A DNA stretch of 64,000 bases from Cenococcum geophilum (GCA_050273025.1 CP158635.1:3534001-3598000); one strand, 5' to 3'; shown: positions 1 through 30,084, counted from the first letter of the stretch. Program-made: numbers and translations. Notes: generated from the sequence alone by a model not told the origin.

Positions 1-1017
1 ACGCATATCGTGCGCAGGTGTATCGCGACCCGACGTTAGATAGGCAGAAGACTTGGATACCGCATACCCCTAAACGTATACCTTGCGCAGGCGCATCGCG
101 ACCCGATGTAACTACGTATATACTACGCATGTGCTACGCAGATAACGTAAGGCTAAAGTATAAAGTCGGCGGTGGATTTAATGGGTATACTGCCCTACTA
201 CTATACGTCTGGCTGTATGCAAATAACCTATAACCTACCCACAAAGTATACACGGCGCTATGCCGGTATAGCGTAAGGCTAAAGTAGGGTTAGCGGCGGA
301 TTTAATAGGTATATAGCCTTACCGTCTATAAATCTGGCTGCATGCGAATAACCTACGACTTACCTATAAGGTATTAGTAACCTGCTTATACAAGTACGCA
401 TCTAGAATTTGGCAGAATTTAGCAGAATTTGGCAGAACTTGGCGGAATCTCTATATACTACGTAGGTATAGTATAAGGCCAAAGTATAGGGTTAGCGGTG
501 GATTTAACGGGCATACTGCCTTACTACTATACGCCTAGCTATATACAAATAACCTATAACTTACCGGTAAAGTATATACCTATCTTTTCGTGCGCAAAAT
601 TAGGACACTCTTTCCCTTTTTAATTTTTCCTTATTAAGGTTTTTTATGGGGTTTTATTAAGGCCTAAGTATGTAAAGGATCGGGGACGACCCTTTTTAAA
701 GGGGGGGGTATTGTTAGGTAAAACCTGAGCATATAGTTATATAGCTGCGAGGTACAGGCGACCCGCAGGCGACTTGCCTGTAAGGCACGTGCGCTACACG
801 TACCTATGGAAACCCCTTACCTCGCACCTCAGACTCCTCCTTCTCCCTTAAGGATTCGTCTCTGTCTATACAATATACCCATTGTTCTATCATTGGACTC
901 CCTATCCATATCCTCACCTTATAATATACGCTACGCTACTACCTATAAGTTACTAGAAGACACGTCCCTTGGCCTATATATACGCCACTATATAATTATA
1001 ATAGGTTTCGCCATATA
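1..1017 (+). mobile_element. 3' end of an LTR retrotransposon (Gypsy-like): 3' UTR repeats, polypurine tract and 3' LTR (712-1017)
   Basis: PPT AAAGGGGGGGG at ~698-708 is followed by TGTTAGG at 712. The LTR ends near GGTTTCGCCATATA (RIP form of ...CACA), an imperfect inverted match to its start. Three diverged copies of a ~90-bp unit lie at ~149-240, ~275-365 and ~475-565. Confidence 0.7.
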
Positions 1018-1099
1018 GCGGCTATATATAGTGTTTAAAACTATTTATAGTTATATTATACTCTTATAATTATTACTAGCATTAAATAGTCTTAGTGTC

Positions 1100-4000
1100 T
1101 TCCTTCTTACCTTAGCCTGCTTTTAAGCTTAAATTAGCCTTCTCCTTATATACCGACTTATGCAGTAACGACGTAAATTTAGTTAACTTTAATATTCTCT
1201 ACTCGATACTCGACTTCTAATTAGCTATAATAGTACTATAGTAAATAGGTTTAGTTTATCCTCGTTAATCTATCTAAGCGAATAGTTACTTTACCTCTAA
1301 GAGCTTATGGCTTAGCTTAACTATAATAGTGTAATTTACGCGCTATAGGTTAATGGACAGCCTAATTAATGCGAAGGTGTAAAGTAGGATCTACTTAGAG
1401 TTATTAGTGTTAAAGGTTTGCCTAGCCTTGGCCTTTTTAATATTAGATATGCCGGCTACATAGTAGAGCACCTTATCTTTACTATATTCTTTATATAGCC
1501 TATTAAACTAATAAGCTAGTATAAGAGGTAAGCGAGTGGTAATAATAATCTTACACGCTGAACTATCCGTTTATTTTTTGATATAAACGTAATTACAGAT
1601 TTTTTTAGCTTAAAAGAACTTTGCATTCTGTTAAAAATAGCGGTTAAGTATATTGGTGAACTCCTTACTAAGCGGGTTAGTAGTTTACTTAGCGATAATT
1701 AGGTCCTTAAGTGTGTAACTTTAAGTTTTTAGGCGTTTATTATCGGACTTATTGGATTTATTAGACTTAATTATAATAGGGGTATACTAGTCCTAGTATT
1801 GGACAACCTAGGCTATGCTTACTGCTATTTTCGCGTTAGTGTATAACTTGGCTTAGGTGAGTTTCGGTATCTTAGGTTTAGTATTTAGATCGCTACTATC
1901 TTCCTCCTATATAGCCAGAAGTTCCTTATATTAGTGCCTTTGCTCTATCCTTACTTGGTCCTTTATAGCTATAATTATAGCCGCCTTAGTATTATTAGGG
2001 TCGGCCTATAATATAACTAATTTAAGATAGCTGTTCTTTAGGATAAGCTTTTACTGGTTAAACTAGAGTGTTAACTCCCCTCTATATATCTAAAACGTTG
2101 GAATAACTATACGGAAAAATGCAGCTAGTTTGCCGAATTTCCTATCTGCTATTACTCTGGCTAGGTTAGTCTTTATATCCTTATAGAGACGGTTAAATTC
2201 CTTCTTCTTTAGCTAGATGTTTTTTTCTTTAAGCTTAAGTAGTACTTTAAACTCTGTTCCCTTTAGCTTATTAGCTTCTTCCCACTCTAGCCTTTTTAAT
2301 CCTGCTATAATAAACCATATTGGTTATATTAGGTTTCCGTTATTAGGTGTGCTAGACGTACCCTATATAGTAGGGCTGCGATTATATATAATGCGGTACT
2401 CCTTAACTATATCCTTAATAAACGATATTAAAACTTTACTGGTTGCGTCTAGGTAGCATTTATCTTAGAGAATACGCCTAACCTATATTACACTCTTTGA
2501 TTTCTGATACGTTCTAGGGGATTAGCCATTTAGGTGTTTCTATATATTGGTTTATATAGCGATAAACCTATATATTAGTCGTGTGGTAATACAATTTCGC
2601 GTAGTAATTAGAAGGAATTAGGTTAAGTATTTTAGCGCTAATAGTTCCGTCGCATTAGGGGTAGGGCTATAATTATTCTTAAACTTGGCTTTACCCTATG
2701 GGTATAATAGGAGAGCCTTGCTAACTAGATATATGTTATTGTTGTTCTTTTATTATTTTTTATTAGTCTACTTAAGAGCCTTACGGATTTGCGGCTATTT
2801 GTCCTTTTTTAGTTTATTAAATATCTTAACTTTATTATAGCTAGGGGCGAGAATTGTAATCTAGGGCAGGTTAGGGCGCTTTATAATTGCGCCGTCTTAT
2901 AATATTATACTCGCGTCCTTTAGGAATCCTGGCAGGCCTAGGGTCGGCGTAAAAATGACTAGGTAGCCTCGCTGTAGGTCTATAGGGTATAGCTTTTTAG
3001 AGTTATCTTCGCAGTAGCATATAATCGGCTGCTTTGCTATCTATAGGCATTTTAAATCTAGCGGATATATCTTAGGTAGGTGGCGGGTTATATCCCTAGT
3101 AGCTTAGGCCTCTTAAACCTTTATTACGTTCTAATAATAAAAGTAGTTTATTAGCTATTAAGTAATTATTTATATAGTCTTGCCCGCGCCGGGTTTGTTT
3201 ATATAGATGCTGCTTTTTTTAATTATCCTCTTTTACTTAAATGCCTAAGTAATATATACTACTTGGTATAGGCTGAATTTAAAGCCTAATACGAGGCCCT
3301 AATTAGGGAGTTCGATTAGGGCGGTTTTAGAAAGTACTTTTAATAAGACGAGTGGGAAATACTTTAGAGTAAGTAGAAGATCCGCCTCTATTATATACGC
3401 TAGTGCGCTATTTAGGTTATCCTTCCTAGCCTTATAGAGCTGGGCTAAGAAAGTTTGCTAGTTAAGTTCTTCCTTTACGTCTACGTCTTAGTTATTATTA
3501 TTAACTAAATCCTTGTTTTGGTTGCTATTATTAACTAAATCCTTATCTTTGTCTCCACTTTTTATATCTTTAGAGTTAGTGTAATATAGGAACTAATTAT
3601 TATATCTACTGGCATGTTGTGGTAATTTACTGTCCTCTACGGTAATATTTTAAGGGATATTAACGGTTAGTGATATAGTAGTAGGGTCGTCTATTATATC
3701 GTTAGGCTAGTGTATACCTTTAGGTTTAGTAATAAATTGCGGCAATTTACCGTTATCTATGGTAATTTCTTTAGTACCGCTGTTACTCGCTAATATGGGC
3801 TTATAGGTAGATAGGTTACGTTTTCCCTTTACTAATTACCTTCTGCGTATAACCAGCTCGTTATTGCTGTTTTTTATAAGAGTGCCTGCTACTAATTCTG
3901 CTTAAGGGCGTTTTCTACTTTTATTTAGGTTGGCCTTATAACTATTTAACTTCCTAGGCGCGGCCGGCTCGCTTTTATTATTCTCCGCTAGGGCACTTAT

Positions 4001-5150
4001 TACCGATTTTAGTTAAGGCTACTTATTATATTTGCCTAATTTAATTTTACTATTATCCAATTTCTTATATCTAATAGGCTCGCCCTTACTATCTTTATTA
4101 GAGCTATATACTGCTAATCCTAAATAACTCTGCTTCTTGCCTTCTCTTAGTTTACTCTTACCGCTGGCCTTACGCGGTATTGGGACTTGCTGGCTATCTT
4201 TTACGCTATATCCATCGCGTCTAGGCGCCTTAGATTTAATAGCTAGCGGTATATTATTAGTGGTAGCGACTTAGAAGTTTAAGCTAGGAGGTAAGAGTAA
4301 TGCTATAAGCACGGCCTCCTTTGTACTATTTTGCGCTATTTCGCTAAGAGCTATAATAAGTGTGCCCTTTAACCGTATTGTAAGGTTTTTGTATCTCCAC
4401 AGCGATATATAGATGTTCTTTTTAGGCGGACTGTTAATGTTAAGCTCTATATAGGCTTATAGTTCCTCCTATAGCTTACCTAAAGCTATATATAGGTTTT
4501 CGCTTATTAGATATAAGACTTAGACTACCCTAACTATTAACCTACCTATTAAGCCTATAGATTAAATTTTAATCTTAATATCTCTTATATTAATTACGTT
4601 GCTCGCCACTAGGGTTACTGGCTGAGGCGAAGGGATACTATATAGTGAGGTTATAGTAACGTCTATAGGCTATATTATATGCAGCAGCTAAGGTGGCGTT
4701 ATCTCGTCTTATGCTTTGGTCTTTAGGGGTAATATATATTTATATAGAGCATACCCACTTTTAGAGGTACTTAGTACCCTTTTTACGCGATTAAAATAAG
4801 TACTTTCTATAATTTTTAGGATTACCTGTAGTTTCTAATCCAGTAAAGTATTAGTAAATTACAGGAGTTACTTATAAAACTCCTTAATATGCCCTTTTTT
4901 TATTATTGTAGAGTTGCCGTGATATGTTATATGCTTAGGCTTAACTTTAATCGCAATATTTTTAACCTTCTCTTTTAGTCTATTATAGTTTTTAATGCTT
5001 ATTTTAAAGCCTTAGGCAATATCTATATCTTTAGTCGGCTTTAGGTTCGCCTTATACCACGCATCCGGCTTTACCTATAGTTGCGTTATTATTAAGTTAC
5101 TTATTTAGTTAGGTATATGTAATATTGCGGCATATATTAAGTAGAAGGTA
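1100..5150 (-). pseudogene. SNF2/SWI2-family helicase-like ATPase, RIP-degraded
   Basis: Reconstructed motifs in correct order on the minus strand: I (D)(E)PGAGKT ~3175-3200; Ia LVIFTP ~2945-2965; II RIL.D(E)C(H) ~2452-2480; III (W)GTS(G)TP ~2345-2370; HelicC IGLSINLQRVN..I..E(P) ~1320-1370; VI Q.FAR.DR.GQ ~1257-1290. N-terminal boundary approximate. Confidence 0.8.
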
Positions 5151-5562
5151 ACTATTAAAGTAGGAGGGCTTTATATGGTAGCTGGCTAGCGCTATACTAG
5201 TATAACTTTAGTGTTAAATATAGTTGGAGGTTAGTTATAGGAGAGATAGAAGGTAGGGTAAGTAAAGTTAATTAAGAAGAGGTAAAGAGGTAGATCTTGT
5301 AATTGCCCGTATGTGCCCGCATAGAGGTAAAATTAGCTATAGTTTGCTGCTACTAGTTAGGGTAAATATGGTTAGACTTAGTACTGTGCAGTTAAATAAG
5401 GGTATAATTATATAACTTATAGGGACTACTCTACCTAGCCTATTTAGGGCTAGGTGGTGGTTTAATACCGCTAAACTCTTATAGTTTTTAATACAAGCGA
5501 TTTATTAAGTGCCTGCGAAGGGGTAATTAGTTATTATAGTATAGTAGACTATAGGAGGTTGT

Positions 5563-5885
5563 GGGCGTTACTATATTTCTTATTATTATATGGAGTTGGT
5601 ATATATGCGCGCCGCTAGAGTTAAAGGGCTAGCCTGCGTCTATATATGCGGGCTTTATTACTGCGAAGTATTTGCTATACAATAGGTAGTATTTCTAGTA
5701 GATAGTAACGTATTGCACTTATTATAGGCGTTACTATATTTCTTATTGTTATATAAAGTTGGTGGATATGCACGCTACTAGAGTTAGAGGGCTAGCCTAT
5801 ATCTATACCTGCGGACTTTATTGCTGCGAAGTGCTTAGTATATAATAGGTAGTACTTCTAGTAGATAGCGATATATTATACTTAC
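5563..5885. repeat. Tandem duplication of a ~164-bp unit (2 copies) between the divergent helicase genes
   Basis: GGCGTTACTATATTTCTTATT...GCACTTA starts at ~5563 and again at ~5727; differences are mostly transitions. Confidence 0.85.
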
Positions 5886-6699
5886 TTTATAATTGCTAGT
5901 ATTATTATTATACTATATAGTACTTAAGGGCCTACTAGATAAGTCTATCCGGAATAATAATTATCTAGTATATAGGATTTATGTCTGTATATAAATATCT
6001 AGTGCTTATTTAAACATATATCTACCGTAAAAGGTAGTAGAAGGTTTTGTATCTTATATTATAAGTTTATATAATTAATAGTATTTTGCAGTATTTTGCG
6101 GCATTTTAGGGCATTTTAGGATAGTAGATATGTTATATATACTAGCATCCAGCCGCTTAGCAACGTTAACTTATCTCGCTATTTATCTATTTAGTGTTAT
6201 ATAAGAGGTTAGTATTCTACTATAGTATTTATTACGTTAGAGTCTTTTAAATTTAATATCTTTATTTAAGATCTGTTTAGAACTATATATAGTTTTATAA
6301 TATCCTGTTTCCCACTTAGTACTCTAGTAAGAGATTATTTAGTTAATAATGCCTTTTCTCTTACTAATTAAGGGAGGAAAAGACTTATACTTTCTAGCAG
6401 TGATAGGCTGTGCTTATTAGTAATATTTTTAATAGATTACAGTGTTTAAGTTTCCGTTTACCTATAACGTAATTAGCCTGCCTATAGTAAAGTGCTTTTA
6501 CTTTACTACTCGCTTCTTTTTTTCCTTACCCTTCTATATATTTATATGCTTATATTATAAACTATAAGAGCTTAATAGTACTGGACTATTACCTGGCCTA
6601 TATTAAGAGATAGGCTAGGTAGGGTAGTCCCTATAACTTATACTATACCGCGTCTTCCTTTATAGGTTGGTTTTGTTACTATAGATTTACCCTTATACG

Positions 6700-9600
6700 C
6701 GTTTGACCTATAGAGTATATAACCGTATACTTTGCCGCTAAGGCCTTACTTATATAATTTTATTAGGGCGCGCCTTATTTCCTTACCTTTACTAGTTAAC
6801 CTAACTCTACTAATTACCTACCCTTACTCCTACCCTACTAGCATTTACCTTTATAACTAGTGCCTTTGTAGATCTATTTAAGCTATAGAGCCTTATAATA
6901 TAGTAAGTCAGCTACCTTATTTTTGGCCTTAGCTATATAATAGAGGGTCTATGTTTACTAATGCGTTTATATAAACTACTGCTTAATATAGCCTGCTACT
7001 AAAATAGACCTACCTACTAATTATTTTATAACTCGCGATATTAACTACGTCTGTGACTATAAAAAGTTTGCTAAGGGTGTTATAGTTTTTAAGATTGCCT
7101 TAACTATGGCGACTATGGGCTTTGGTGTCTTGTAAGGTAATAGTAAGGGCCCTACGCTTAATAAGCCTCTTCTTTTAGAGCTTAGTAGTCTATACCTTTT
7201 GGCTAATAACGCTTTAAAATGCTATTTCTGTCTGTTTACCGGCTATATACGCGCCAATTATCCTCTTAAGAAAGCCTCTTAACTTTATTACGGCTATAAT
7301 AAGGCTGGTTATCTTAAAGCTAACTGCCTTAACCTTATATATAATAATTATAAGGAAGCCGGTTATCTTAAAAGTAATTATCTTAGTGTAATATATAACT
7401 AATATAGTGCTATAGGCTATAGAAAGCGAGACTGTTCCTAGCTATTAGGTAAGAAGAAGTAGACTTGCCTAAACTATAGCTTTCTGAACCATTAAACTGT
7501 CTTTTATAGTTAGGTATATAAGAACTATAGAGTTATAGGGTATAATATTAATAATTATATAAGTAGACCTACTTTAATTTGGGTGATAGATGCTATAACC
7601 GCTCTAGGTAAGATAGATGCACTAAGTGCTGCCGCTTTAAGTATAGCTGCTACCTCTTCATTGCCTAAACCTCTTAATATAGCCGGCTTCTATCCGGTAG
7701 CGGATAGCCTAGTAGATAATCTAGATACCTATATAGAGGATAGTGATTCCGTAATAGCCGAACCTTTAAATGTACTCTAGCTTCTAAATAATAACTATTT
7801 TATAGTTTAGTTTGTTATATAAATTATTAAAGAGTATATTATAGTATATAGTATTATATTCTAGGTGTCTTATAAGACTAGTGGAATGCCTACTTATTGT
7901 TTATATAAGATGGCGTCTATCTAATTTATAGATGCTAATATTACTAGCAATGTTAAGGTTAACACTACTAATGCTACTTCTTTAGTTACTTAATAACTAT
8001 TATATCTAACTATACTTAAGTATCTTACTTGCATTCTCCTACAAGATACTATAACCCTATAACTTTACTATATTAGGTTCGTTGTCGCCTCTAATAAACC
8101 TACACTAGGTACGCGTATGTTGCTTAGTAAGTACTTCTTTATTAATAGGGACTTTAGCCCATTTACGCCGTAAATCTATAAAGCTTAGGATATACTATTA
8201 AATAGTCCTATAGTTGTTGTCTATTTCTTTACACTAGGTACTAAATGGCTTAATAGTTATATCGCAAGCCTAAACATAAGCCTATAATAGCAGAGCGTTA
8301 ATAATCCTTTAGGTTGCTAGTAGAAGAACTATAATATAAATATTTAGCTTAGTATATAGCTTTTAGTAGAGGACCGACTATTATATAAAATCCCCGTAAG
8401 GTATTAGTTTAATAGTGTTCTTAAGTATTTTACGGTCTAGTTCTATGCCGTAGTTGCGAGCCTTAAGGCCGTTAATTAGAACCCCTAGGTACCTACTATT
8501 ATTTATTTTATTACCTTTTTAGGTAGCGCAGACTAAGTCTACTATACTACTATCTAGATAGTTAATGGTCTTATCCTTTATACTAACTTTATCATTAATA
8601 TCTTATTTTTAGGTAAAAATATAGATAGCTAGGCTAGTTAAAAAGGAGTTATTATTAATACCACTCCCTTTAGCTCCGGCTATAACTACTATACTTTTGT
8701 CTTTTAACTATAGGTAGGTTATAAGTTTATACTAAACCCCGTATTTGCTCTGGAGTATATCCTAAGCAGCAACAACTTTATAATAGTTAGTAACCTAAGT
8801 AAGGCCCTAATTACGGCATAGGGTATTAAATGTCTTATAACTGAGCGTATCCCTAAGGTTGGAATCTCTTAAGAGATTAATACTCTATACTACCTATAGT
8901 AAGGAGGTAATAGTTTCTATATTAAGCGCCAAATTGTGCTATCTAATAACTTTATAGATCTCCCGCGTATTAATTACTTTAACTATAATATTACTAAGTA
9001 TAGGAAGAACTTGGTTAATAATGCCCTTAAGGCTGTTTTACCGCTACTTAATAAAGAGTAAATAGGTGCCTATACTGCGCTTAAATATATAATAGGCGGT
9101 ATTTTGCTAATATAAGGCCCCGGTAGTATTAGGAAATTAATCTTTCTAACTGTTTTAGTATAATACTAGTATTAACTTAGGTTACCCTAATAGGATCCTA
9201 CTAAAATCTAGGTCCTATTACCGCTTAATTACTAACTAGATATACTAGCTAAGATAATTAATAATACGCTTATAGAGGACTATAAGGCACTAATTGTATA
9301 AGGCCATCCCGCTAAATTTCCTATTATCCTTCGCCGCTATATATACTTAACGGAAACTAAGGCCTATAAGCAGGATGCCGTTATATAGTAAATAGCGGCA
9401 GGTATTAATACTTATCCTAAGCATTTTAAAGAATAGGATAACTATGCTATAATTAATAAGGATATATCTATACTAAATATAGTATTCCTACTCTACCGTA
9501 TATTTAAGGCTAGTAATGCTACTGGCTTTAATAAGTAGTTATAGGTTATAGATTTGTCTAAAGGTTAGTAGTTATTATACCTTATAGGTGTTTTAAATAG

Positions 9601-11073
9601 TAATAGAAACCTATATTTTATTATAGACCCTAATATAACTAAATACGCTAAATTCTGCCAATACTTATACTGATTTGCGCTTAGTAATAATATAACGTAA
9701 GATAATAAGATGGGATTAATACTTATAGCTAATATAGTTATTATAGACCTAGCTAAGAAGGCTAATGTTATTCTTATAATACCTAATATGGTCTTATAGA
9801 CTTATATATATTCTATTAGCGCTATATATATAGTTTTCTATAATAAGGCCAGGAAGGTATCTAAGCTAGGTAATCTTATTAGGTTCACCTAGAGCAGACC
9901 ATATTTAATCTAAGGAGGTCTATAAATCTAGGCTAGCGACCCCATGCCTTAGGTTTTTCTTAGTAATATATACTAACTAAAACCAATCCTTAGTCCTAAT
10001 TTTAATAATCCGTTCTACTATTAGAAATCTATCTCCCTCTATACGCGTCTCCTTACAGCTAGTGCGGATATAGTATAGTTTTCGCTATAATATTAATTTA
10101 TTAAAGATATTATATGTCTTATAAATGCCATCCTGCCGTATAGCCAGCTTTAGATAAGCCTAATAATTAAGGACTAAGAGTAGTTAAAGCTAGCGGCGAG
10201 CTTTTTTAAGGATATGCTGCGCTATGACCACCCTGTTACCTTTCTTGCCGTTAATGGTACTATATAGGTAAATAAGCTTAGCTAATTAATGTATAACCTG
10301 GTCCACGCTTAACGCGCATTTTAGGTGGCTATAGCGCTAATAGACTTTAAATTTAAGCTATTAGAGGTTAGCCTTACCGTTCTATATATAGCCTAACTTA
10401 TTGTCTACTCCACAGCGCTATATGCGCTTAAAGAATAGTGCTACGCCTAGTAAGATGGTAGTAAGTAGCGGGAATTTGCGCTAGTAGTTAGTAAGATTAA
10501 GGTCTTTACCATTAACGGCATCTAAGGCAGCTAGGTGGAGTTATTAGTATATAATATAATAGTTGCTAGTCCGCTAAAATTTATTTAGGATACAGTAAGA
10601 AACCTTTTTATAATTACTAGACTATAAGCGGGCCTTATTATTATTAGTAGTCTCTAGGTAGTTTATAATTATTATACTAGCAATAAGACCTTTATAAATA
10701 CTGCGTATTATAAAATTAAGAAGTAGTATAAGGATAATAAGGTATTTATTAACCTTAAGAATTTTAAGCGGAAAAAGCACTTCTAGTAACTTATTACCCT
10801 GTTTAACGTTAATGAAACTATATAGTATATTTACCGCTAGCGTATAGCTAATTATACGCCTATTTTATATAGTATGGATATTAACTTTAATATTACTATT
10901 CCTAACTTCGCGGGTGTAATAAATATTAGTAATACTGGTAATTATACTAAAGCGTGGAATGAGGCTAATAGAGAGGGCGCTAATAATAACGGCTGGGGCG
11001 GTGCTAGTGATAATAACAAGGATAACAATAATAGAGAGGATGTTAGTGGTGTTAGAACATAAGGAGGGTGGTA
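6700..11073 (+). pseudogene. Zinc-knuckle (CCHC) plus Upf1-like SF1B helicase, RIP-degraded
   Basis: CX2CX4HX4C-type knuckles ~7285-7390. Reconstructed helicase motifs: Q motif and Walker A LI(Q)GPG(G)(T)(G)K(S) 9107-9139; Ia P.N(H)(Q)LD ~9220; II F.(D)(E)A.K ~9835-9855; III L(G)(D)..(Q)LKP ~9958-9985; SL.TRL ~10033; V TI(D)GI(Q)GS 10508-10531; VI ITR..AGL.I.(G) ~10612-10648. Acidic/Gly tail with GWGG and GGW-stop. Start approximate. Confidence 0.8.
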
Positions 11074-11357
11074 AGGATAGATGTTATAGACTTTATTAGT
11101 AGCAAGACCCTTAAATAGGGATACTAGATAGAAGTTAAGAGCGGCAATAGCTATAGGCCTTTAATATTTACAATTTTGCTATAGTATTAGGTAAAATATG
11201 GCATATTATAATATTATATATTATAGCTAAATAAGATCTCTAAAACAGATAAGCGTATTATAGTAAAGATAGCCCGATTTATAAAGCCTAGTAATCCTAG
11301 TTTTTATCCCTTTTAGGCTAGTAGTTAATTAATACTAATCTGTAATCCAGATTTTAA

Positions 11358-11751
11358 GGGGTTATTTAGTTATAATTTATTACTTTTAAATCTAAACTAA
11401 AAGTCTAGTAGAAAGAACGCGTTCTTTCCCAATTTAATATGTATCTATAGCTCTACGGGTTATATAAATATATATAATTTAAAGCCTTTAGATTTAATCT
11501 AGAGTTTAAATAAAGAGCTTTAAGCTCCTAATTTAAACTAATGCTAAGACCTTAGTTTAGATTCTGTATATAGTAAAGTTACCAACTTTTTAGTAACTTT
11601 TAGCGTGTTTTTTAAAATATTAAAAATTTGTAGCTAAAGTTAAATTAAACTAGAATTTAACCAAATGGTTACCTTAGAATTAGATTAGAGCTTTAGATTA
11701 ACTCTATTCTAAAGCCCTTATTCTAATTTAAACTTATAACCAAACATTCCC
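11358..11751. mobile_element. PIF/Harbinger (Tourist-like) MITE nested in the giant element
   Basis: Imperfect 18-bp TIRs (GGGGTTATTTAGTTATAA / TTATAACCAAACATTCCC) flanked by TAA on both sides (11355-57 and 11752-54); AT-rich non-coding interior. Confidence 0.65.
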
Positions 11752-11799
11752 TAAATACTTAACTAGTTAGATTATAGTCTAGATATCTCACTAATAACC

Positions 11800-13150
11800 G
11801 CAACTATTATTAATAACTCTCTATATAGTATAGGCCGCCTCTATTTTTACTAAACTATAATAACCTTAAATAGGATCTAATCCTTTTCTTATTATAGCTG
11901 CCGCTAAGGCAATGTAACCTAACGCCCTCTCCTGCTTATATTAGGTATACTATTTCTAGTATTAGTATACCGTTACTATATCTTAAGAAACTTGTCGCTA
12001 ATACTATAGGCCCTTAGAATAATACTTATCCTACTATACTAGCTACTAGCTAGTAAAACATAGGACAAATATAATATTTATATAGTTGCCCCTAATAGAA
12101 AAGCCTATAGTAAAGGTAATTTGCTATACTATATTTAGATAACCTAAGATTATATATATAGGTAATAATCTTAAGGCTTTTTAGTACAATAGGAGGTCTT
12201 ACTATAAGGTAAACTTAACTAAAGTTACTATCTTTACGTAGATTAGATTAGCTGTAATTAATTAATGCCTTTTAGCCCGCCTAGTGAAACATATTATACT
12301 AGAGATAGGGCTAGATAAACGTTAGTAATATATTATAATTACAACGGATACCGGTATACTATCTCTATAGATAGCTGTAAATATAATTTAGCCTACCCTA
12401 TAATAAACTGCCCTTAATAGAGCAGCCCTTAAGGCCCTATTGTTTTAGATAGGTATAGTTTTTATATAGGCGGCCTATATCTACTCCTTGTTATAATCTA
12501 CTCCGGCCTCTAAAAACATCTTAACTAGTAGCTAATATTCAACTATACGTAGGTCTTAAGCCGTATTAAATAGCGACACTAGACTTAAGGCTATGTTTAT
12601 ACTTAGGACTAAGTTTATATTATCTAGTTTCCGCTTATAAAGTAGTATAATAAGTTATTTAAGATTATAGCCGTAGTTCTACGTATAGTTAAGCTGGGAT
12701 AAACTCTATAAGTTTGCGGCAGCTATATGCCCCCTTTCCATATCTACTATATAGTTAATACTAGGCCGCCCTAGCACCTTTATCTTCTTGTGTATATTTA
12801 ACTATATATAGGCTAGTATATTCTATATAGCCTTATATACCTATAGCGCTAGTGCCTTCTTATATTCTACTACCTAACAAATAACTTTCTAGATTGCCTA
12901 CTTGCGTAGCAAATTGTTTAGTTATTTATAAAATAAAATATATAAAATGCCGTCCTTAATAATAACCTACTTAAAAGTCCGCTTAATAGTATTAAGTCTC
13001 TCTATAGTAATGCCTAAGCCGGTAATAAGCTGTATATCTTTTTGCGGGTCTATAGCGCTTATAGAGTTGTACTACGCCGTATTTATAGTATACCGCTATT
13101 ATATATCGCGTCCTATTATAAAAAATAGTCTAGTATCCTAAGTAGGAAAT
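11800..13150 (-). pseudogene. Unidentified RIP-degraded ORF inside the giant element
   Basis: Coding-like minus-strand reading (e.g. LLVKMFLEAGVD..KE.I.AAY.KT ~12460-12535) whose stops are consistent with RIP; no family recognised. Confidence 0.35.
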
Positions 13151-13299
13151 AGTAGTGTTTAGAATTCTATACTTAGTATAATAGAAAGGCGGCGCGATAT
13201 TAGTAATAAGTAGAGTCTCCTAGCTTAACGTAACGCGATTTAATATAAATTAGCATAAAATGTAACGGGTTGCGCTATTTAGCGCGTTAGTGTCTACAG

Positions 13300-16200
13300 A
13301 TATTACCATGCTCTTACTATACTCCTCCTATCTTAACTGGCTTATAATATAGTATAAGCTATAAATACTACTTTAAATATACGGTTTTATATAGATATTA
13401 TTTTCGGCTCCCTTCTAACTAAACTATAGTAAATTATAGCTTAATGCGGCAATTTATAAATAAGCTCTATCTAGCGGTAATATAAAAAGTATAGGACTAA
13501 AGTAAAAAGTATAGGCGGTCTAACCTATTATAAATAATATTATCTAAGATAATAGAAATAGAAGAAGGGTAGATATAAGGGCGTTAATATTAAAGAGATA
13601 AATAATAATGCACTCTTATGCTATTAAAGCTTAGAGGAGTATTAGATAGCCTATTATAGGGCTAAGCTAAAGTAATATAATAAGTAGCTACTTATATAAT
13701 ATATAGACGACGATGCACTATTATGCTATTAAACCTTAAAAGGGTATTATATAACTAATTATAAGGCTGAATTAGAGTAAGGTAATAAGTGGCCACCTGT
13801 ATAAGCTTTAGGCGATAATATTATTAATAAGCTAAATAATGGGGCTGCGGATATGCACTATAATAATAATTCCGTAATATTTAATAGGGTATATAACCTG
13901 GCGATAGTTAAAACTAATTGGTAAACTTTAACTGGAATATCTATAGACGTCTTTTGGATTAAAATATTTAAAGAGGCCACTAGCCGTGCTGTGGGAAAGC
14001 CTTTGGGACGGAATTAAGGAAATTTATAAACTATAGATAATACTGCAGTAGTATATGATATTATGCCGCGTATTAAGCGTATTAGTAGTGTACTAGATAA
14101 GATACCTTCCCTATTTTATCCGTTTGGTAGTAAGGCAGAATACGTATAGGTCTTATAGTGGGTAAGCTATAGGACTTTTAACCGCGCTATTAACGAGTAG
14201 TTTAACGATATTAGGCTTTAGGGAGTATTTACTAACTATTTTTCTTACTAGAGTGCTAATAATATTAAAGTAAAACTACTTTTAAAATAGATGTAATCTA
14301 AGAGTAATTAACCATAGTAGATTAAAATAATTATAACCATAGGGGACTAGTAGCTACTAGTACGTTACTGAAATGCTCTAGAAATTATGTCCTTCCTTAT
14401 TAGTTATGGCCCTTTTTAAGGAGATATAACTTTCTTACTAGTAAGGTAGTACTTATTAGTAGGAATAAGAATATATAATAAGCTTAATATAGTAGACTAG
14501 TGGTAGGAGATGTAAGAGTAGCTACCGCTCGGCGTAACTGTAGTGCTAATTATATTAGCTAGTAATAAAACCTAATTAATATAATATACCGGCGGCAAGA
14601 AAGCATGGCCACTTTATATTTTAATTAGAAATATTAAACTGCGCGTTTAATAATCCGTAAATTAACTAGCCCTATTACTGCTTATATACCTCCCGGTTTA
14701 TATACCTAGTAACTAAATAATATAACTAGCGGTGCAATATAAGACCCTCGCGGCTATCCTTAAACGTATATTTTAGCGATAACCCTACTACTAGTATAGT
14801 TATGCTAATAATGCCTATAGCGTTAGAGAAAGCTAGTAAAGAAGGAGTATATCTCCTATGCGCGGATAGCTAGGATTAATACTGCTTTTTACTTTTAGCT
14901 ATATTTATGGCTAATTATAAAGAATAGGTTACGCTTATAGATATTAAAAGTGGCTATAAATATTTAACTTATTATATATATACGAATGAACGGCATGATT
15001 TAATAACTGCTATTTAGCAACTATAGCCGTTCTATATATACTAATTAATAAAAGACCAAATATAAATATAGTAGGAAGGTTACGATACTAATAAGAAGGA
15101 TAACTTAGATTATATTTGGCCGTTCTATAACTTTATATAGGGCTATAATCTATCTAATATCTATAAGATAATAGCGCCTAATTTTCTATACTAGGTGCTT
15201 AAAGGCCTTACTAGTAAATATCTTATATACTAGATTAAGGGGCTTATATAAAGTGAAATATAGGCCGGAAAATATTAGGGCCTTGATATCCCGCGTACAG
15301 ATAGTTACGGCTAAAAGATATTAAATATTAATATACTTATTACTACCCGCTTCGCATAGGTGGAACAATTTACCGATATAATAGTATAGGATAGCTAGGT
15401 AAATGTTGGCTAATAGATAAAAAAGATGTATAAATCTCTATTACGATAATTAGTCCCTACTATAGCACCCTTACTAAAATAGAATAAAGGTGCTATGCTA
15501 TTTATCCGGGCGTTTATAAACTTTACTATACTATCTTAATATATATTATACAATGAATTAACTATTTAGTACCTAGTAGTAGCTATTTATAGAATGGATA
15601 AAATAAAGGATATATTTCTTCCGTTTTAACTAAGTAAGGTAGGACTACCATACTTTAATATTCCTAAGCTATATACTATTACTTACTATTTAGAGAGTAT
15701 CTAGCGACTAGGAGTAATTAGAGGTATAGATATAAAGTATTTAGAGCAAGTATATAAGCTATAGAAGGTATTCTACTATAGGACCAACAAACGGAATAAC
15801 TATAAAGAGTAGATGCTATAATATAACACTATATATCTTAATACTATGCTTTAAAACAAACTTAAGCTATAGGCGTCAACTAATATAATTGATATAGTAG
15901 ACCTAATAAGCGTAATACAGATAATATAACTAGGCCCTATAGTTAATGTATATGTACATCGCTTATATATATAGAACTTTAATAACTATATAACTTAGAT
16001 ACTTTAAGGCTAGAGAATTAATATATCTATTTAGCGTATAGTTAAGGAGGTATAGTGCCGGATAGAGATTACTGACCTTATATCTAAACTAGCCCCCTTT
16101 ATAAGGGAATACCGTAAGTAGATTAATGAAATCTGGTAAATAAACTAGGACGTTAACTAACTAGAGGCCGATAATAATTGGGTATTAAAGATGCCCTTAA

Positions 16201-16780
16201 GTATCTATTATAGCGTTATATGCTATATTTACTTTAGGAAGAATGCTACTAATACTAATAAGCTTAATAAGGTATTAATTTAATATACCCCGTTATAGGC
16301 TAATATTAGAGCCCCCCGCTATAATGCTGTAATAGTATAAGAATATAAGCGGGTAAATAATAGCCTCTATAGCAATAAAGTAGGGAGGTTTTGTTTACTA
16401 CTTACAATCTAAGATACTAGGCGATTAGATAGTAAGGGCAAATACCTAAAATACGCTAGTGTATTAGTAGAGACCCTTTAAGTTTATAATAGTAGTAAGA
16501 TTAACGCAAGAACTAAAATACTTAGAGTATAAAGTATAAAGCTATCTAACAGTAGGATGAAACGTACGCTAGATGCCCTCTAAATATATAATATTAACCA
16601 TATCACGAGGCCTATCTTACTTATACTAACGGATATTAACGTTATAGACTATTTCTTTATAAATAACTATAGCAATTAGGATATATATAATACTATATAT
16701 AATAAAGATTTTAAGCGAATAAATAGGGTATAGGTTAATATATATATAAGGAAATAGGCTTATACTAGGCGGTAAAGAAA
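13300..16780 (+). pseudogene. Plavaka transposase (PF18759-like), RIP-degraded
   Basis: Reconstructed FYPFGS(E)AEY ~14113; RIYN(E)LN(T)(A)D(W)W(W)EM(Q)E(Q)LPLG(A)TVV(P)IILAS(D)(E)T(Q)L....GGKKAWPLYI(S)I(G)NI 14468-14635; IAP(D)FL(H)(Q)VL.G ~15171-15206. These match the characteristic Plavaka core motifs. Confidence 0.88.
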
Positions 16781-16999
16781 TATAACTTAGCTAAAATAGT
16801 GGTAAGTTATAACTAGCGGCGCTAGATTGTAATAAAGGGGTAGATTGCCGCGACTATAATAAACTAGAATATAATACTACTATATATCGCCCTCTACGCG
16901 CTAGCTACCCTTTATATCCTATATACCGTACTATCTACCTTAAAAGTAGGCAAATATCGCGAGGAACTAGGCTTTTATATGGTATAGAAAAAATATTAT

Positions 17000-19162
17000 A
17001 TAAAGTAGGACCCTATGCTATAGTAAGGCAATCTAATCGCCCTGTTATAAAGCCTAATAAACAGTTAGGCCGCCCTCCTAACTTATTATTATAAGTTTAT
17101 TAAAGCTCCTTTTTATATACTTAGTAAAAAATGCCTAATTTATATTATAAAAGTTAACCGAGTTATTATTTAAAGTATATTAGGTATAAGACTTTAGACT
17201 ATTTAGTATCTTTTAGGGAAGTAAAGTGTATATAAAAGCTAAATAGTTCTACTAAACTAATATACTTATTCTTTACCTATTTTGTAAAAAAGTAAATAAA
17301 GATGTTATAAGTTAAGTAGTAGCTCCTAAGATAATCTAAATCTTAAAGGGGATAATATCGGGCTCTATACCATAACTGTCTCTATTAAAAGGCAAGGCTA
17401 TTATTAATGTGCTATAGTACAACCTATTATTATTAATTTTAATAACGTTATCCTAACGGATAGTTTTATTCTTATTAGATAAAAGCCTATAAACCCTAAG
17501 CGACCGTAAGATATCTAAAACCTACACTTAAAAGAAATATATATATTACTTAAATAAACAACCGCTATAGGATAACTTTAGATAATATATAAAGCAGCTA
17601 CTTAGCCTAGTTAATATAATAATATACAGTATTACTTAGATATGTCTTATTATATAAGTAATAATAGGCTCTATACCTAAAGAGCTCTATCTCTTTTTTT
17701 AGCTAGAAATAAATATAAGCGGTTTAAACACACTAATAAAGCAGACGTAAAAAGAGGCGATTACTATTATAGACCGTTATAAAAACCCAATAAATAGAGT
17801 ATTAAGTATATTACTGGGGCCAGCGGCACGCAAGGTTCGCGGTCCTTAGATTTAGTAGCACTATACTAACCAATTTTCCAGCTATACGGCTAGCTTAGCG
17901 TATTTTGGTATTATATAATAAATATAGTACGCGATACTATTACCGGGAGCTATAACTGCCTTAAGCTAAATATTAAGGCCGTAGTAGAGGAAGTAGCGGA
18001 ACTACTTAAGGATAACTACTTTACGCTCGGTGGCCCGGTTAGTACTCTACCTTTTACTATACCTAACTAACTAAGGCTAGGATAGAGAGATAAGATTTAG
18101 GGCGCTAATTATCGCACGTTATATTAAGCGTGTATTCTTTAATACTAGGCTAAGGTCACTCGCCCTTAATAAGAATAATACTAACCTCTTCTTACCTATT
18201 ACAGCTAATACGATATAGCTTATATACGTAGTAATTTAATATACTCTTAAGGACTATAGAAGCGGAATATAAGTTTAAAGCTAACGCTATAATTATAGGT
18301 AAATCTATAGGAAGCCTCTTATTATACTTACTAAAGCGTATTATAAATAGTTGGGAGCGACTATAGAATACTTAGAAGAGCTACTAACCTAAACGTAATA
18401 AAAGGCTATATAGGCTACTTCTATAATAAGTTAATAAGATATAGAATATAATTAGAGATAAGATACTATAGACTTAGCAGGCAATTAGTAATCTATTTAA
18501 AAATACTATAGAAGATCTAGAGGAACTAGATCCTAAGTATAATAACAGGTTTACTTAATAACCGTATACTGTAAGTGTAAATATATAATATTATATTAAT
18601 CGCATTATAACATTATATTATAATACTCGCTGTATACTATAGTACTTTACCGCCGTTTCCTATATTATAATATTACGCTATTTTAATTGTTATATATAGG
18701 CTAATAAAGATAATATAATAGGATAATAGTAGCTTAGCGCATTTATTATAAAGAATAAACCCTAAAATTATATATAAGGTCTCCTTCTCGCAGTATACTA
18801 ATAAGACGATTTTAATGCTATATAACTATAACATTAACGCTATTTAAGCGCGCCTTAAATAAATTTAAGGTAATAATAAATAGGAAATAGGAATTAATTA
18901 CCGTATCTTATAGTGTACTTTCGCCGGCAAGTCTAAGGTTATAGATATTATAGATAGTGCTATACTAGAGGATATAAAGGCCCGCCTATAAAGTGGAGAT
19001 AGATTAGTAATACTGGAATTTGCTAATAAAGAGGATAAGAGTAAAGAAGGCAGCGGAATAGATAGGGAAAATAACGGCAATAAAGAGGATAAGAGTAGAG
19101 AAGGCAGTAGGATAGACGGGGAAAATAATAGTAAGAATAACGGTAAGAATAAAGACGATTAG
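17000..19162 (+). pseudogene. Second Plavaka-associated ORF (DUF6532-like segment, acidic C-terminus), RIP-degraded, probably with introns
   Basis: EEVAELLKDNYF ~17987-18022, then a likely intron, then IKRVFF...LF(S)PITANTI.LI.(A)(A)I(Q)(H)TLKDYRSG 18123-18266, resembling DUF6532 proteins from memory. Repeated KEDKS.EGS low-complexity tail at 19030-19160. Confidence 0.45.
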
Positions 19163-19319
19163 GGGTTTAATAGTACGGTACTACTATTACGGCGGGACTT
19201 ATATAAATATTAAACTTAAAATAGTAGGTTAACTAAAGGGCGTTATTAGGCGTATTAAGGTTATATTATATTACTATTAGGTTAAAATATATTCTTTATA
19301 TAGTATATACTAGGTATAT

Positions 19320-19910
19320 AGAATAAGTAGAGAATACTAACTACGTAAAATAAGTAAAGGGTACTAACTGCGTAGAATAAGTAAAGGGTACTAACTGTAT
19401 AAACTAAGTAAAGTATACTAATTATATAGAACGGGTAAATACTATTAACCGCGTAGACTAAGTAAATACTATTAAGTGCGTGGGAAGAGCAACGCTTATT
19501 TATTACTTAAAGTAAGTAAGATATATAGAATATATAAGGGGGGTATTATATATTAATTACGCATTAAGTATAGAGAGAGCTTAATAGAATAAAGGCACTA
19601 CTTACTTAGGTGGCTGTAAATGCGCAATTAGCTATATCGCGTTATTAGATATGGCAGTATACTATACCGCGTTATTAGATACGGCAGTATGCTTATACCG
19701 CGTTACTAGATATGGCAGTATACTATACCACGTTATTAGATGCGGCAGAATGCTGCACTATATTATTAGATGCGGCAGAATACTACACCGCGTTATTAGA
19801 TACGGCAGAATACTACACCACGTTATTAGATGCGGTAGTATACTTGCACCGCGTTACTGGATACGGCAGTATACTGCACTGCGTTATTAGATGCGGCAGT
19901 ATGCCGCACC
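19320..19910 (+). repeat. Subterminal tandem arrays of the giant element: ~27-bp unit x~6 (19320-19480) and 30-bp unit x~9 (19637-19910)
   Basis: Units approximately AGAATAAGTAAAGGGTACTAACTGCGT and CGCGTTATTAGATGCGGCAGTATGCTGCAC. Confidence 0.9.
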
Positions 19911-20269
19911 TGAGTCGATACCATACGCTACACGTTGCAGTGCGCGGATTGCGCATTTGGCCGCTAAATGCCGCCAAATGCTGCGAAAATGCTGGTAAAT
20001 TTTTTCCTGACGTACGTGGGTTGCGTAGGCTCTGCGTAGGCTATACGTAGGCTGCGCGTTAAAAACACCAAATGCGTTAACGACGTCAGCGGCGTCGACT
20101 GTAGCTATTTGGCGCCTAATTGACCTATTTGGTAGTATTTGATTTCACTTAACGAGTAGTTTAAATCTTAGCCTGCGGATATTTTCCTAATAAAGGTATG
20201 GCCGTTAACCAAGATAGTTATAATATAATTAGAGCAAAATATATTAATCTACTGTGCTAGTAGTATACC

Positions 20270-23557: not shown

Positions 23558-23559
23558 TA

Positions 23560-28682: not shown

Positions 28683-29175
28683 TACTTCGTAGTTGTTAAG
28701 TTTGCTTGGCAGCCGTCGAAGGCGTTAAGGGCGCTTCCTGGCTATTTCCACCTCTTCAACTTCCTCACTATAAACAGTAACAATTTCAACCTCTTCTGTA
28801 GCCAATATTGAGTTATTTTAAACCCTCTTTAACTTCCTTACCTGTTTAAGTTTATTTTGTAATTGTAGCCTAACTTGTCTAGCTTCCTTAGCTTCGTTAG
28901 GAAAAAATTTACCAGCATCTGATTTTACTTTTCTGCCATTTTAGCATTTTCTAGCATTTCTAGCATTTTCTAGCATTTAGCAGCTAAATGCGGCATTTAT
29001 TACTAAGTACTAGCATTTAGCGCCAAATGCCGCATTTATAATTAAGTATTAGCATTTAGCTGCATTTATTACTAAGTACTAGCATTTAGCCGCCAAATGC
29101 TGCATTTATAATTAAGTATTAGCATTTAGCTGCTAAATGCTAGAAAATGCTAAAATGGCAGAAAAGTAAAATTAA

Positions 29176-29536
29176 ATGCTGCACGAAGCTCTGCATGAAG
29201 TTCTGCACGAAGCTCTACACGAAGCTCTGCACGAAGTTCTACACGAAGCTCTGCACGAAGTTCTACACGAAGTTCTGCACGAAGCTCTGCACGAAGTTCT
29301 ACACGAAGTTCTGCACGAAGCTCTGCACGAAGCTCTACACGAAGCTCTGCACGAAGCTCTACACGAAGCTCTGCACGAAGCTCTGCACGAAGCTCTACGC
29401 GAAGCTCTGCACGAAGCTCTACACAAGGCTCTACATAAAGCTCTGCGTACAGAGGCTCTGCACAAGGCTCTGCGCGAAGCTCTGCGTACGGAGGCTCTAC
29501 ACGAAGCTCTGCGTACGGAGGCTCTACACGAAGCTC
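29176..29536 (+). repeat. 12-bp minisatellite (CACGAAGCTCTG)n, ~30 units
   Basis: Direct inspection; variants GTT/GCT and CTA/CTG; produces the HEAL/CTKL/RASC repeat ORFs. Confidence 0.95.
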
Positions 29537-29680
29537 CGCATCGGGTCCCCGCTATATTCCCGATAGCCTCTACACGTGCCTCTGCCAAGTATACCCCCTA
29601 TATACACCTAGGTAGCCACCTCATTTTTTACCCTTCCTTACATCCTCCCTACCTAGGAAGACACCAGAACGACAGCCAGC

Positions 29681-30020: not shown

Positions 30021-30084
30021 CCGTTCGAACGACCAGCCAGCGAACACGATAAACGATTCGATCGATCGCTCGAATCAAGGTAAC

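What the first reader, a model, noticed from the sequence alone, without database searches (positions are those of the whole stretch)
1018..20012. Giant (>19 kb) Plavaka/CACTA-like transposon carrying a SNF2 ATPase and a zinc-knuckle Upf1-like helicase
Seen: one stretch with gene order SNF2(-) / CCHC-SF1 helicase(+) / unknown(-) / Plavaka transposase(+) / DUF6532-like(+) / subterminal arrays / 24-bp terminal sequence. That terminus is shown to be a real TIR by the TSD-flanked copy at 28895-30661. Established: RIP targets duplicated DNA, and Plavaka transposases are CACTA/Mirage-related fungal DDE enzymes. Inference: the helicases are as heavily RIP-mutated as the transposase, so they were multicopy parts of the mobile unit rather than host genes. 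A DDE transposon with both a chromatin-remodeller-type ATPase and an RNA-helicase-type gene may be an undescribed giant-transposon architecture, distinct from tyrosine-recombinase Starships, and could encode its own anti-silencing or targeting functions. I cannot confirm novelty without a search.
Basis: partly seen in the sequence, partly recalled or inferred. Interest (0 to 1): 0.9.

Follow-up and report, generated by a model that had tools for sequence, protein, structure and literature searches.

The report
Dead giant Plavaka transposon with two helicases
This stretch is a mutation-riddled, left-truncated copy of a roughly 19.7-kb cut-and-paste transposon of a fungus that carries, besides its transposase, a chromatin-remodeller-type ATPase gene and a zinc-knuckle RNA-helicase-type gene, a cargo not found in the literature searched.

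Summary
Window 911/924-20012 is one copy of a high-copy, RIP-decayed Plavaka-family DDE transposon. It ends in the 24-bp TIR at 19989-20012, followed by TA.

All four named genes were verified, mostly through less-decayed sister copies and intact relatives:
- SNF2-family ATPase relic, 1115-5071 (-).
- CCHC zinc-knuckle Upf1-like SF1 helicase relic, 7004-11071 (+), colinear with an intact 1355-aa protein at 59% identity.
- Plavaka transposase, 14360-15224 (+).
- DUF6532 relic, 18081-18314 (+).

The "unknown (-)" gene was not verified.

The window copy has no left TIR. Seven sister copies in metagenome contigs carry a family TIR in the correct orientation 0.2-0.9 kb upstream of the point matching window 911-924. 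Other copies run colinearly from the helicase gene through the transposase to the right TIR, each in a different flank. The family makes 2-bp TSDs, mostly TA (11 of 13 complete pairs).

Giant Plavaka elements with accessory genes are already described in red algae, so this is a new variant of a known kind. What the two ATPases do for the element is untested.

The parts
1..923 (.). Different RIP-decayed repeat family abutting the truncated left end. It contains units of about 105-110 bp at 142-249, 268-374 and 474-579. It is not part of the element.
   Evidence: Self-BLAST. It matches L046 12978-13811 and 7464-7691, and matches no sister copy of the big element.
911..20012 (+). Body of one left-truncated copy of the giant Plavaka-family element. 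Homology to sister copies starts at 911-924.
   Evidence: Colinear alignments at 84-89% identity to L013, L014, L032, L038 and L056 (911/924 to as far as 10860; L038 to 7580) and to L075, L019, L020, L062, L018, L061 and L009 (up to 20014). L074 bridges 8812-16815. Multicopy depth supports this.
1115..5071 (-). SNF2-family ATPase gene relic, riddled with RIP stops.
   Evidence: tblastn of intact relative P0002 (1310 aa): residues 7-104, 216-312 and 524-1300 map colinearly to 5071-1115, with 36.8% identity over 789 aa, E = 2e-129. Relatives carry Helicase_C in 8 of 9 and SNF2-rel_dom in 5 of 9. A profile of the relatives hits RAD5, ISWI, RAD54, CHD1, LSH, DDM1 and INO80 in PDB.
5072..7003 (.). 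Spacer between the two divergently oriented ATPase genes, with a tandem duplication (5564-5726 / 5727-5891) and an inverted repeat (5411-5498 / 6548-6642). A shared promoter region is an inference.
   Evidence: Self-BLAST. The same repeats are present in sister copies.
7004..11071 (+). CCHC zinc-knuckle + Upf1-like SF1 helicase gene relic, single exon.
   Evidence: Intact P0046 (1355 aa) aligns over residues 1-1355 in one HSP at 58.9% identity. Pfam on P0046: zf-CCHC E = 2e-21, AAA_12 E = 9e-20, AAA_11 E = 1.5e-4. Best solved relatives are UPF1/NAM7 at E = 7e-13.
11358..11797 (.). Variable segment that defines two subfamilies. The window, L075, L019 and L074 share it. L020, L062 and L018 carry a different segment of about 660 bp.
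11798..13700 (-). No gene was verified.
   Evidence: No Pfam hit in any frame of the window or of the less-decayed copy L020.
14360..15224 (+). Plavaka DDE transposase relic, in two frames: 14360-14698 and 14820-15224.
   Evidence: PF18759 E = 5.7e-13 and 2.3e-3 in the window; 83.8 and 38 bits in L020.
18081..18314 (+). DUF6532 gene relic.
   Evidence: PF20149 E = 2.2e-4, below cutoff, in the window; 36.3 bits, above the cutoff of 24, in L020.
19300..19988 (.). Right subterminal repeat arrays, including repeats of about 30 bp at 19632-19910.
   Evidence: In transition-blind comparison, 19443-20012 matches the right end of the small element.
19989..20012 (-). Right terminal inverted repeat, followed by TA at 20013-20014.
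   Evidence: Exact match. Sister copies end at the same base and are followed by TA in 6 of 7.
28895..30661 (+). Non-autonomous 1767-bp member of the same TIR family, with a TT target-site duplication. It is little mutated and sits in the GC-normal island.

Best explanation
Window 911-20012 is a dead copy of an autonomous Plavaka-family (CMC/EnSpm-related DDE) DNA transposon. It has been inactivated by RIP and has lost its left terminus. An intact element is about 19.7 kb long.

Sister copies show the full unit. From left to right it comprises:
- a 24-bp TIR (5'-CGTCA...);
- a left terminal module of 0.2-0.9 kb;
- an SNF2-family ATPase gene on the minus strand;
- a divergently oriented CCHC zinc-knuckle Upf1-like SF1 helicase gene;
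- about 2.7 kb of unassigned sequence;
- the Plavaka transposase;
- a DUF6532 gene;
- subterminal repeat arrays;
- the inverted TIR (...TGACG-3').

Shown: the unit is multicopy. Its copies sit in different flanks. The family makes 2-bp, mostly TA, target-site duplications. It has spawned many short non-autonomous derivatives.

Inferred: movement is cut-and-paste, with the transposase acting on the TIRs and subterminal repeats.

Inferred and untested: the two ATPases are element-encoded helpers rather than passive passengers. The most likely roles are to open or protect chromatin at a very long element (SNF2) and to handle element RNA or DNA or interfere with RNA-based silencing (Upf1-like helicase). 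I put about 0.4 on that functional part.
For: TIR and TSD. Of 13 complete TIR pairs, 11 have an exact 2-bp TSD and 0 have a 3-bp TSD. TA follows 45 of 74 right TIRs.

Transposase and DUF6532.

SNF2 identity: (44 hits at E <= 1e-3, best 541.7 bits).

Helicase identity: (1036 bits).

One colinear unit. P0046 tblastn finds the helicase 3' end upstream of the transposase in all 5 sufficiently long transposase-bearing copies: L019, L020, L062, L074 and L075.

Left end: all 7 left-anchored copies (L010, L013, L014, L032, L038, L056, L106) carry a family TIR in left orientation upstream of the junction matching window 911-924.

Independent insertions: 7 right ends lie in 7 different flanks.

Multicopy along the whole length: (24,111 X1 contigs; flat summed depth with a 2-4 fold drop after about 20343; 9-42 distinct contigs at each listed variant site).

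RIP. Only 98 of 2625 and 210 of 3092 variable columns are anything other than pure transitions.

The termini and the 2-bp TSD resemble published PlavakaB (CATCA..TGATG, 2-3 bp TSD; PMC12730594, passages read).
Against: No single copy with both ends was seen. The fetch limit was 10 kb per side and the records could not be extended, so the full unit is a tiling.

The window copy itself lacks the left TIR.

The left end is complex. In 5 of 7 copies the body abuts the right-orientation TIR of a complete MITE-like module of about 600 bp, and in L014 that module has no TSD of its own (GT versus CT). In the other 2 copies a TIR-like sequence plus 190-480 bp precedes the body and is itself preceded by a MITE left half. 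This fits a composite or end-swapped element as well as a simple one.

Summed contig depth is not a copy number; the tool itself says so.

The second base of the terminus differs from published PlavakaB (G versus A).

Nothing tests any function of the ATPases. All copies seen are dead.
Confidence: 0.85

Rival explanations
1. Composite ('macrotransposon'-like) element. An ordinary Plavaka of about 8 kb (transposase + DUF6532) lost or bypassed its own left end. It then began to move using the left TIR of a nearby family MITE, dragging along two ATPase genes that merely lay in between. These would be host genes or genes from another element. They would be passengers with no role for the element.
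For: In 5 of 7 left ends a complete MITE-like module abuts the body, and in L014 it lacks its own TSD. The other two left ends are also preceded by a MITE half. A variable segment at 11358-11797 lies between the helicase gene and the transposase half. In subfamily B it resembles repeats inside a small family element, L007.
Against: No TIR remnant beyond chance lies between 10.9 and 13.8 kb in the window or in L019, L020 and L062: 4-7 weak matches against 4.5 expected, and none resembles the TIR letter by letter. The junction to the body is at the same base in both left-end types. Both genes are kept in every copy that reaches them. The helicase is a single uninterrupted exon. Relatives of both proteins occur as full-length proteins plus many short fragments on several contigs, as expected of repeated, decaying element genes.
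Confidence: 0.12
2. Not one mobile unit. Instead, a RIP-hit segmental duplication, or several unrelated decayed elements that happen to lie side by side.
For: The whole window apart from 28-34 kb is RIP-like repeat debris. The window copy has only one TIR.
Against: The same 19-kb order recurs at 84-89% identity in 13 loci on different contigs. It ends at exactly the same base at the right TIR in 7 different flanks and starts at the same junction in 7 left-anchored copies. Depth drops right after the TIR in all four runs.
Confidence: 0.02

Closest known systems
PlavakaB DNA transposons of Agaricomycotina (Kojima 2025, PMC12730594; passages read)
   Same: Plavaka-type DDE transposase (PF18759). 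Short TIR starting C-purine-TCA (here CGTCA..TGACG; published CATCA..TGATG). 2-bp TSD (published 2 or 3 bp). Can carry an accessory gene.
   Different: The second terminal base is G, not A. The host here is a RIP-competent fungus; the nearest named relative of the cargo protein is a Pleosporales ascomycete. The cargo is an SNF2-family ATPase plus a zinc-knuckle Upf1-like helicase, not TET/JBP. No TET/JBP family appeared in the Pfam scans.
Giant Plavaka elements of red algae (Bostrychia, 17.4-19.1 kb, accessory genes PAG1-3; bioRxiv 10.1101/2025.02.11.637652; passages read)
   Same: Same transposase lineage, same size class, and several accessory genes kept within the element. An inferred chromatin or epigenetic theme for the cargo.
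   Different: The red-algal cargo is an unknown protein, an N6-adenine methylase/SET protein and a ParB-like/2OG-oxygenase protein. None of these was detected here. Here the cargo is two helicase-superfamily ATPases plus DUF6532.
Helicase-bearing DDE transposons (AcademH, KolobokH) and Helitrons
   Same: DNA transposons that encode a helicase beside the enzyme that moves them. AcademH and KolobokH are only named in passing in PMC10799480; their details are recalled.
   Different: Different transposase superfamilies. Helitrons use an HUH nuclease with a Pif1-like helicase (recalled). No combination of SNF2 and Upf1-like helicases is known to me in those.
Starship giant elements of ascomycetes
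   Same: Large cargo-carrying mobile elements in RIP-competent fungi.
   Different: Starships are moved by a tyrosine recombinase 'captain' (recalled). Here there is a DDE transposase, 24-bp TIRs and a 2-bp TSD. No recombinase family was found.

Membership tests
Plavaka (CMC/EnSpm-related DDE transposons) | Plavaka transposase domain (PF18759) | tested here: met
   Window: 49.2 bits, E = 5.7e-13, plus a second stretch. Sister copy L020: 83.8 and 38 bits against a cutoff of 26.3.
Plavaka (CMC/EnSpm-related DDE transposons) | 2-3 bp target-site duplication | tested here: met
   11 of 13 complete TIR pairs have an exact 2-bp TSD; 0 of 13 have a 3-bp TSD.
Plavaka (CMC/EnSpm-related DDE transposons) | Published termini: PlavakaB CATCA..TGATG, or PlavakaA TGT..ACA (PMC12730594) | tested here: inconclusive
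   Here the termini are CGTCA..TGACG. Four of five bases match PlavakaB, and the difference is a transition at position 2.
Plavaka (CMC/EnSpm-related DDE transposons) | [quoted passage not shown] | not tested
   All copies are RIP-mutated.
SNF2-family ATPases | Helicase_C lobe plus SNF2-related N lobe | tested here: met
   Intact relatives: Helicase_C above cutoff in 8 of 9. SNF2-rel_dom at E < 1e-3 in 5 of 9, but above cutoff in only 1. In the decayed copies, Helicase_C appeared in 2 of 12 copy-frames, best E = 0.016.
SNF2-family ATPases | Closest solved relatives are SNF2 remodelers rather than other SF2 helicases | tested here: met
   A profile of 10 intact relatives gives 82 PDB sequences at E <= 1e-3. 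The top hits are RAD5 (2e-20), ISWI, RAD54-like, CHD1, LSH, INO80, Fun30/Fft3, ERCC6 and DDM1. P0002 alone gave no PDB hit.
Upf1-like SF1 helicases | AAA_11 + AAA_12 helicase core | tested here: met
   P0046: AAA_12 at 71.6 bits (cutoff 27); AAA_11 at 22.1 bits, below its cutoff of 27. Best solved relatives are UPF1/NAM7, E = 7e-13. The natural copy L014 reads a Walker A, GPSGVGKST.
CCHC zinc-knuckle proteins | zf-CCHC repeats | tested here: met
   P0046: zf-CCHC at 75.3 bits in 3 stretches, plus zf-CCHC_2 and a Lin-28-type knuckle. Weak hits were also seen in decayed copies.
Starship elements | Tyrosine-recombinase captain gene at one end | tested here: not met
   No such family appeared in the six-frame Pfam scans of 1-20500. 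This is a weak negative, because the same scans also missed both ATPase genes.
TET/JBP-carrying or PAG-carrying Plavaka | TET/JBP dioxygenase, or a methylase/SET and ParB/2OG cassette | tested here: not met
   None appeared in the Pfam scans of the window or of L020. This is a weak negative for the unassigned 11.8-13.7 kb and 15.3-18 kb stretches.
RIP-mutated repeat | Transition-only divergence among copies, with high TpA/ApT and low (CpA+TpG)/(ApC+GpT) | tested here: met
   Indices 1.56-1.75 and 0.32-0.51 across 1-20 kb. 96% and 93% of variable columns are pure transitions. Contig differences are about 98% transitions.

The most novel reading that the evidence does not exclude
The element is a self-sufficient transposon with its own chromatin and RNA toolkit. 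Its SNF2-family remodeler and its zinc-knuckle Upf1-like helicase would be dedicated element factors. They would either be needed to mobilise a 20-kb DDE element from packaged chromatin, or they would blunt the host's repeat defences (heterochromatin, RNA silencing, perhaps RIP itself). That would be a fungal counterpart of the anti-silencing accessory genes of VANDAL and of TET/JBP-carrying transposons, built from helicase-superfamily motors.
Probability: 0.3. Interest if true: 0.8.

Novelty: new variant of a known kind. Interest (0 to 1): 0.62.

Why it matters
Accessory genes in DNA transposons are rare, and the known ones point to a fight over silencing: VANDAL, TET/JBP and the red-algal PAG genes.

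Here is a DDE transposon family that has kept a chromatin-remodeller-type motor and an RNA-helicase-type motor through amplification to high copy number in a fungus with an aggressive repeat defence. That suggests a further way for elements to manage host chromatin or RNA surveillance.

It also shows that giant cargo-carrying elements in RIP-competent fungi are not only Starships.

Intact versions of both cargo proteins exist in public data: P0046 and P0047 at 1355-1356 aa, and P0002 at 1310 aa, on contigs of 7-20 kb. The idea can therefore be tested.

On method: ordinary family searches missed both genes completely in the decayed copy. They were recovered only with profiles built from several independently mutated copies.

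Tried and rejected
1. Pfam on the window's own X-read frames found no SNF2 or helicase family, even at E <= 10. phmmer against PDB gave no hit for either relic. The six-copy helicase profile against PDB gave no hit. A word-indexed search with the window's SNF2 relic gave no hit. With profile A3 at 'near' lengths it returned only a 247-aa fragment of another decayed copy.

2. The TGA-free-frame idea was rejected. TGA contains TpG and is itself erased by RIP, so all frames are TGA-poor.

3. The transition-naive multi-copy consensus did not reopen long frames (longest 218 codons), because most stops are shared by all copies. It was used only for counts.

4. No whole genome is held for the window. 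The metagenome records behind the loci are not held for extension. The protein atlas does not accept read-through translations. The 2014 paper that first named Plavaka is not held.

5. A search for an intact element among the 124 loci found none. The long ORFs belong to unrelated AT-rich contigs or to flanking genes.

6. L018 and L009 were checked as possible short variants. Both are copies truncated by other repeats.

7. No second copy of the big element lies elsewhere in the window, by plain or transition-blind BLAST.

8. The run shares (0.20-0.55) were not used as evidence of presence or absence polymorphism.


Full report
**What is in the window.** The window is AT-rich with almost no open frames. 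RIP indices are high everywhere except about 28-34 kb: TpA/ApT is 1.5-2.1 and (CpA+TpG)/(ApC+GpT) is 0.2-0.6. That small element is flanked by TT on both sides. A search that ignores transitions, the only change RIP makes, finds no further copy of the terminus anywhere in the window. The window copy of the big element therefore has a right end and no left end.

**The transposase half.** I read all six frames with X at every stop. Pfam then finds the Plavaka transposase at 14360-14698 (49.2 bits, E = 5.7e-13) and at 14820-15224 in a second frame. It also finds DUF6532 at 18081-18314, just below its cutoff. In a less-decayed sister copy, L020, the same genes score 83.8 and 38 bits for Plavaka and 36.3 bits for DUF6532. 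All three are above the curated cutoffs.

**Is the whole stretch repeated?** No genome is held for this window, so I used public runs. Twenty runs from 12 studies hold part of 10013-20012. I laid four runs on 1001-21000 at 80% likeness. This placed about 21,000-24,000 contigs each for X1, X5 and X9, and 1,961 for X21. The contigs differ from the window almost only by transitions; in X1 that is 3,349 transitions against 51 transversions. Each listed variant site is covered by 9-42 distinct contigs, all along the stretch. Summed depth is flat from 1001 to 20343 and falls 2-4 fold in the last bin in all four runs. The tool warns that summed contig depth is not a copy number, so I use it only to say two things: every part of the stretch is multicopy, and the family ends near the TIR.

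**Sister copies.** I scanned the metagenome contigs for the TIR written with transition-tolerant codes. Fourteen loci carry body sequence of the big element at 84-89% identity.
- L013, L014, L032 and L056 align from window 911/924 up to 10156-10860, the limit of the fetch. L038 aligns to 7580.
- L075, L019, L020 and L062 align from 9918-10105 to 20014.
- L074 bridges 8812-16815.
- L061 aligns from 13737.
- L018 and L009 are copies truncated by other repeats.
- L010 is a foldback made of two left ends.

All seven right ends stop at the same base of the TIR and continue into seven unrelated flanks. The first two bases of the flank are TA in six and TT in one. The window also has TA.

**Target-site duplication.** Across all loci, 11 of 13 complete TIR pairs have an exact 2-bp target-site duplication and none has a 3-bp one. 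TA follows 45 of 74 right TIRs and precedes 36 of 71 left TIRs.

**The left end.** The junction with the body lies at the same base in all seven left-anchored copies, matching window 911-924. What precedes it comes in two forms.
- In L014, L032, L056, L106 and L010, the body abuts the right-orientation TIR of a MITE-like module of about 600 bp. L010 comes from a different metagenome. In L014 and L010 the module is seen whole, TIR to TIR. In L032, L056 and L106 the locus begins inside it. The module's outer TIR faces the correct way to pair with the distant right TIR.
- In L013 and L038, a TIR-like sequence plus 190-480 bp of subterminal sequence leads into the body. That sequence is itself preceded by the left half of a MITE.

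The L014 module has no target-site duplication of its own (GT against CT). This fits the outer TIR being the working left end of the whole unit. With that module, the element measures about 19.7 kb.

In the window the body is joined at 923/924 to a different repeat family that also occurs in L046. The window copy is therefore truncated or interrupted at its left end.

I could not obtain one copy with both ends. The fetch limit is 10 kb per side and the records cannot be extended here.

**The two ATPase genes.** Ordinary searches failed completely on the window copy. Scans of the less-decayed copies gave only hints: Helicase_C in 2 of 12 copy-frames, and zinc knuckles and P-loop families at E = 0.007-0.3. 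RIP hits different sites in different copies, so I built profiles from several natural copies read in frame.

The five-copy profile of the minus-strand relic was run exhaustively against 1.84 billion representatives. It found 44 proteins at E <= 1e-3, of which 13 were at E <= 1e-30, and ten were long proteins of 936-1894 aa.
- Of nine long hits, eight carry Helicase_C above cutoff. Five carry the SNF2-related domain at E < 1e-3, one of them above cutoff.
- A profile of ten of these proteins hits 82 solved chains. These are led by RAD5, ISWI, RAD54, CHD1, LSH, INO80, Fun30, ERCC6 and DDM1.
- The consensus of these proteins shows the sequence blocks that I recall as typical of SNF2.
- P0002 (1310 aa, ordinary composition) maps colinearly to 5071-1115 on the minus strand, with 36.8% identity over 789 residues.

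The six-copy profile of the plus-strand relic was searched among longer proteins and found P0046 at 1036 bits.
- P0046 has three or more CCHC knuckles, AAA_12 at 71.6 bits and AAA_11 at 22.1 bits.
- Its best solved relatives are UPF1/NAM7.
- It aligns to window 7004-11071 in one piece over all 1355 residues at 58.9% identity. The relic is therefore a single-exon gene killed by point mutations alone.
- Its 90%-identity cluster holds 13 members, among them intact proteins of 1356-1377 aa and many fragments, on contigs of up to 20 kb.
- The nearest named relative of the SNF2-like protein is an uncharacterized protein of a Pleosporales fungus.

**Are the ATPase genes inside the element?** Yes, as far as tiling can show.
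- The SNF2 gene ends about 190 bp from the left junction.
- Both genes are present in every copy that reaches them.
- All five transposase-bearing copies that extend far enough run into the 3' part of the helicase gene.
- No TIR remnant beyond chance lies between the helicase gene and the transposase.
- No TIR-bounded copy lacking the ATPase genes was seen among the loci.

The complex left end keeps one rival alive: that the unit began as a composite mobilised from a neighbouring MITE. I give it about 0.12.

**Comparison with what is known.**
- Kojima (PMC12730594, passages read) describes PlavakaB with CATCA..TGATG termini and 2-3 bp TSDs, and TET/JBP as the fungal accessory gene.
- A red-alga preprint (10.1101/2025.02.11.637652, passages read) describes giant 17.4-19.1 kb Plavaka elements with three accessory genes of other kinds. 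It states that in basidiomycetes only TET/JBP was found with Plavaka.
- Searches for Plavaka (20 papers), for CACTA + SNF2 + helicase + transposase + fungal (0 papers), for DUF6532 (1 paper) and for DNA transposon + SNF2 + accessory gene + transposase (7 papers, two read in passages) found no description of this cargo.
- The supplements of the two Plavaka papers were not read and could list further element proteins.

I therefore rate this a new variant of a known kind.

**Mechanism.**
- Shown: a DDE transposase gene, 24-bp TIRs, subterminal repeats, a 2-bp TA-biased TSD, many non-autonomous derivatives, and inactivation by RIP.
- Inferred: cut-and-paste movement.
- Speculative: the SNF2-type motor and the Upf1-type helicase serve the element, in mobilising a very long element or in escaping silencing.

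Noticed in passing
window 28895-30661: The 1767-bp non-autonomous family member sits in the GC-normal island. It is barely RIP-mutated (one transition in its TIRs), unlike the big copy. Its left 270 bp form a near-palindrome (28913-29181). Its interior consists of tandem arrays (about 29172-29540 and 29669-30018) and a (CAGG/TAGG/CAGA)n stretch at about 30090-30290. It may have inserted much later than the big copy.
   Followed up: partly
L010 1299-5292: A foldback derivative from a different metagenome. It consists of two inverted copies of the element's left 1.7 kb (the 3' part of the SNF2 gene). At least the right arm ends in the MITE-like module and TIR.
   Followed up: partly
window 11358-11797; L020 1270-1940: Two subfamilies of the big element differ by an alternative segment here. 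The subfamily-B segment shares tandem repeats with the interior of a small family element (L007 1788-2114).
   Followed up: partly
window 1-923: A separate repeat family with units of about 105-110 bp (142-249, 268-374, 474-579) and a GGCAGAATTT-type short array at 403-448. The array recurs inverted at 60243-60293 in transition-blind comparison. The family also occurs in L046.
   Followed up: no
window 24299-24400 / 32800-32901, and 41423-41634 / 48275-48486: Two further repeat pairs, at 93% (inverted) and 89% (direct) identity, unrelated to the Plavaka family.
   Followed up: no
alignments A3 and A4 (copies of both ATPase relics): Most stop codons sit at identical positions in all copies. This fits RIP saturating the same CpA sites independently in each copy. 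It would also fit amplification after partial decay. The two were not distinguished.
   Followed up: no
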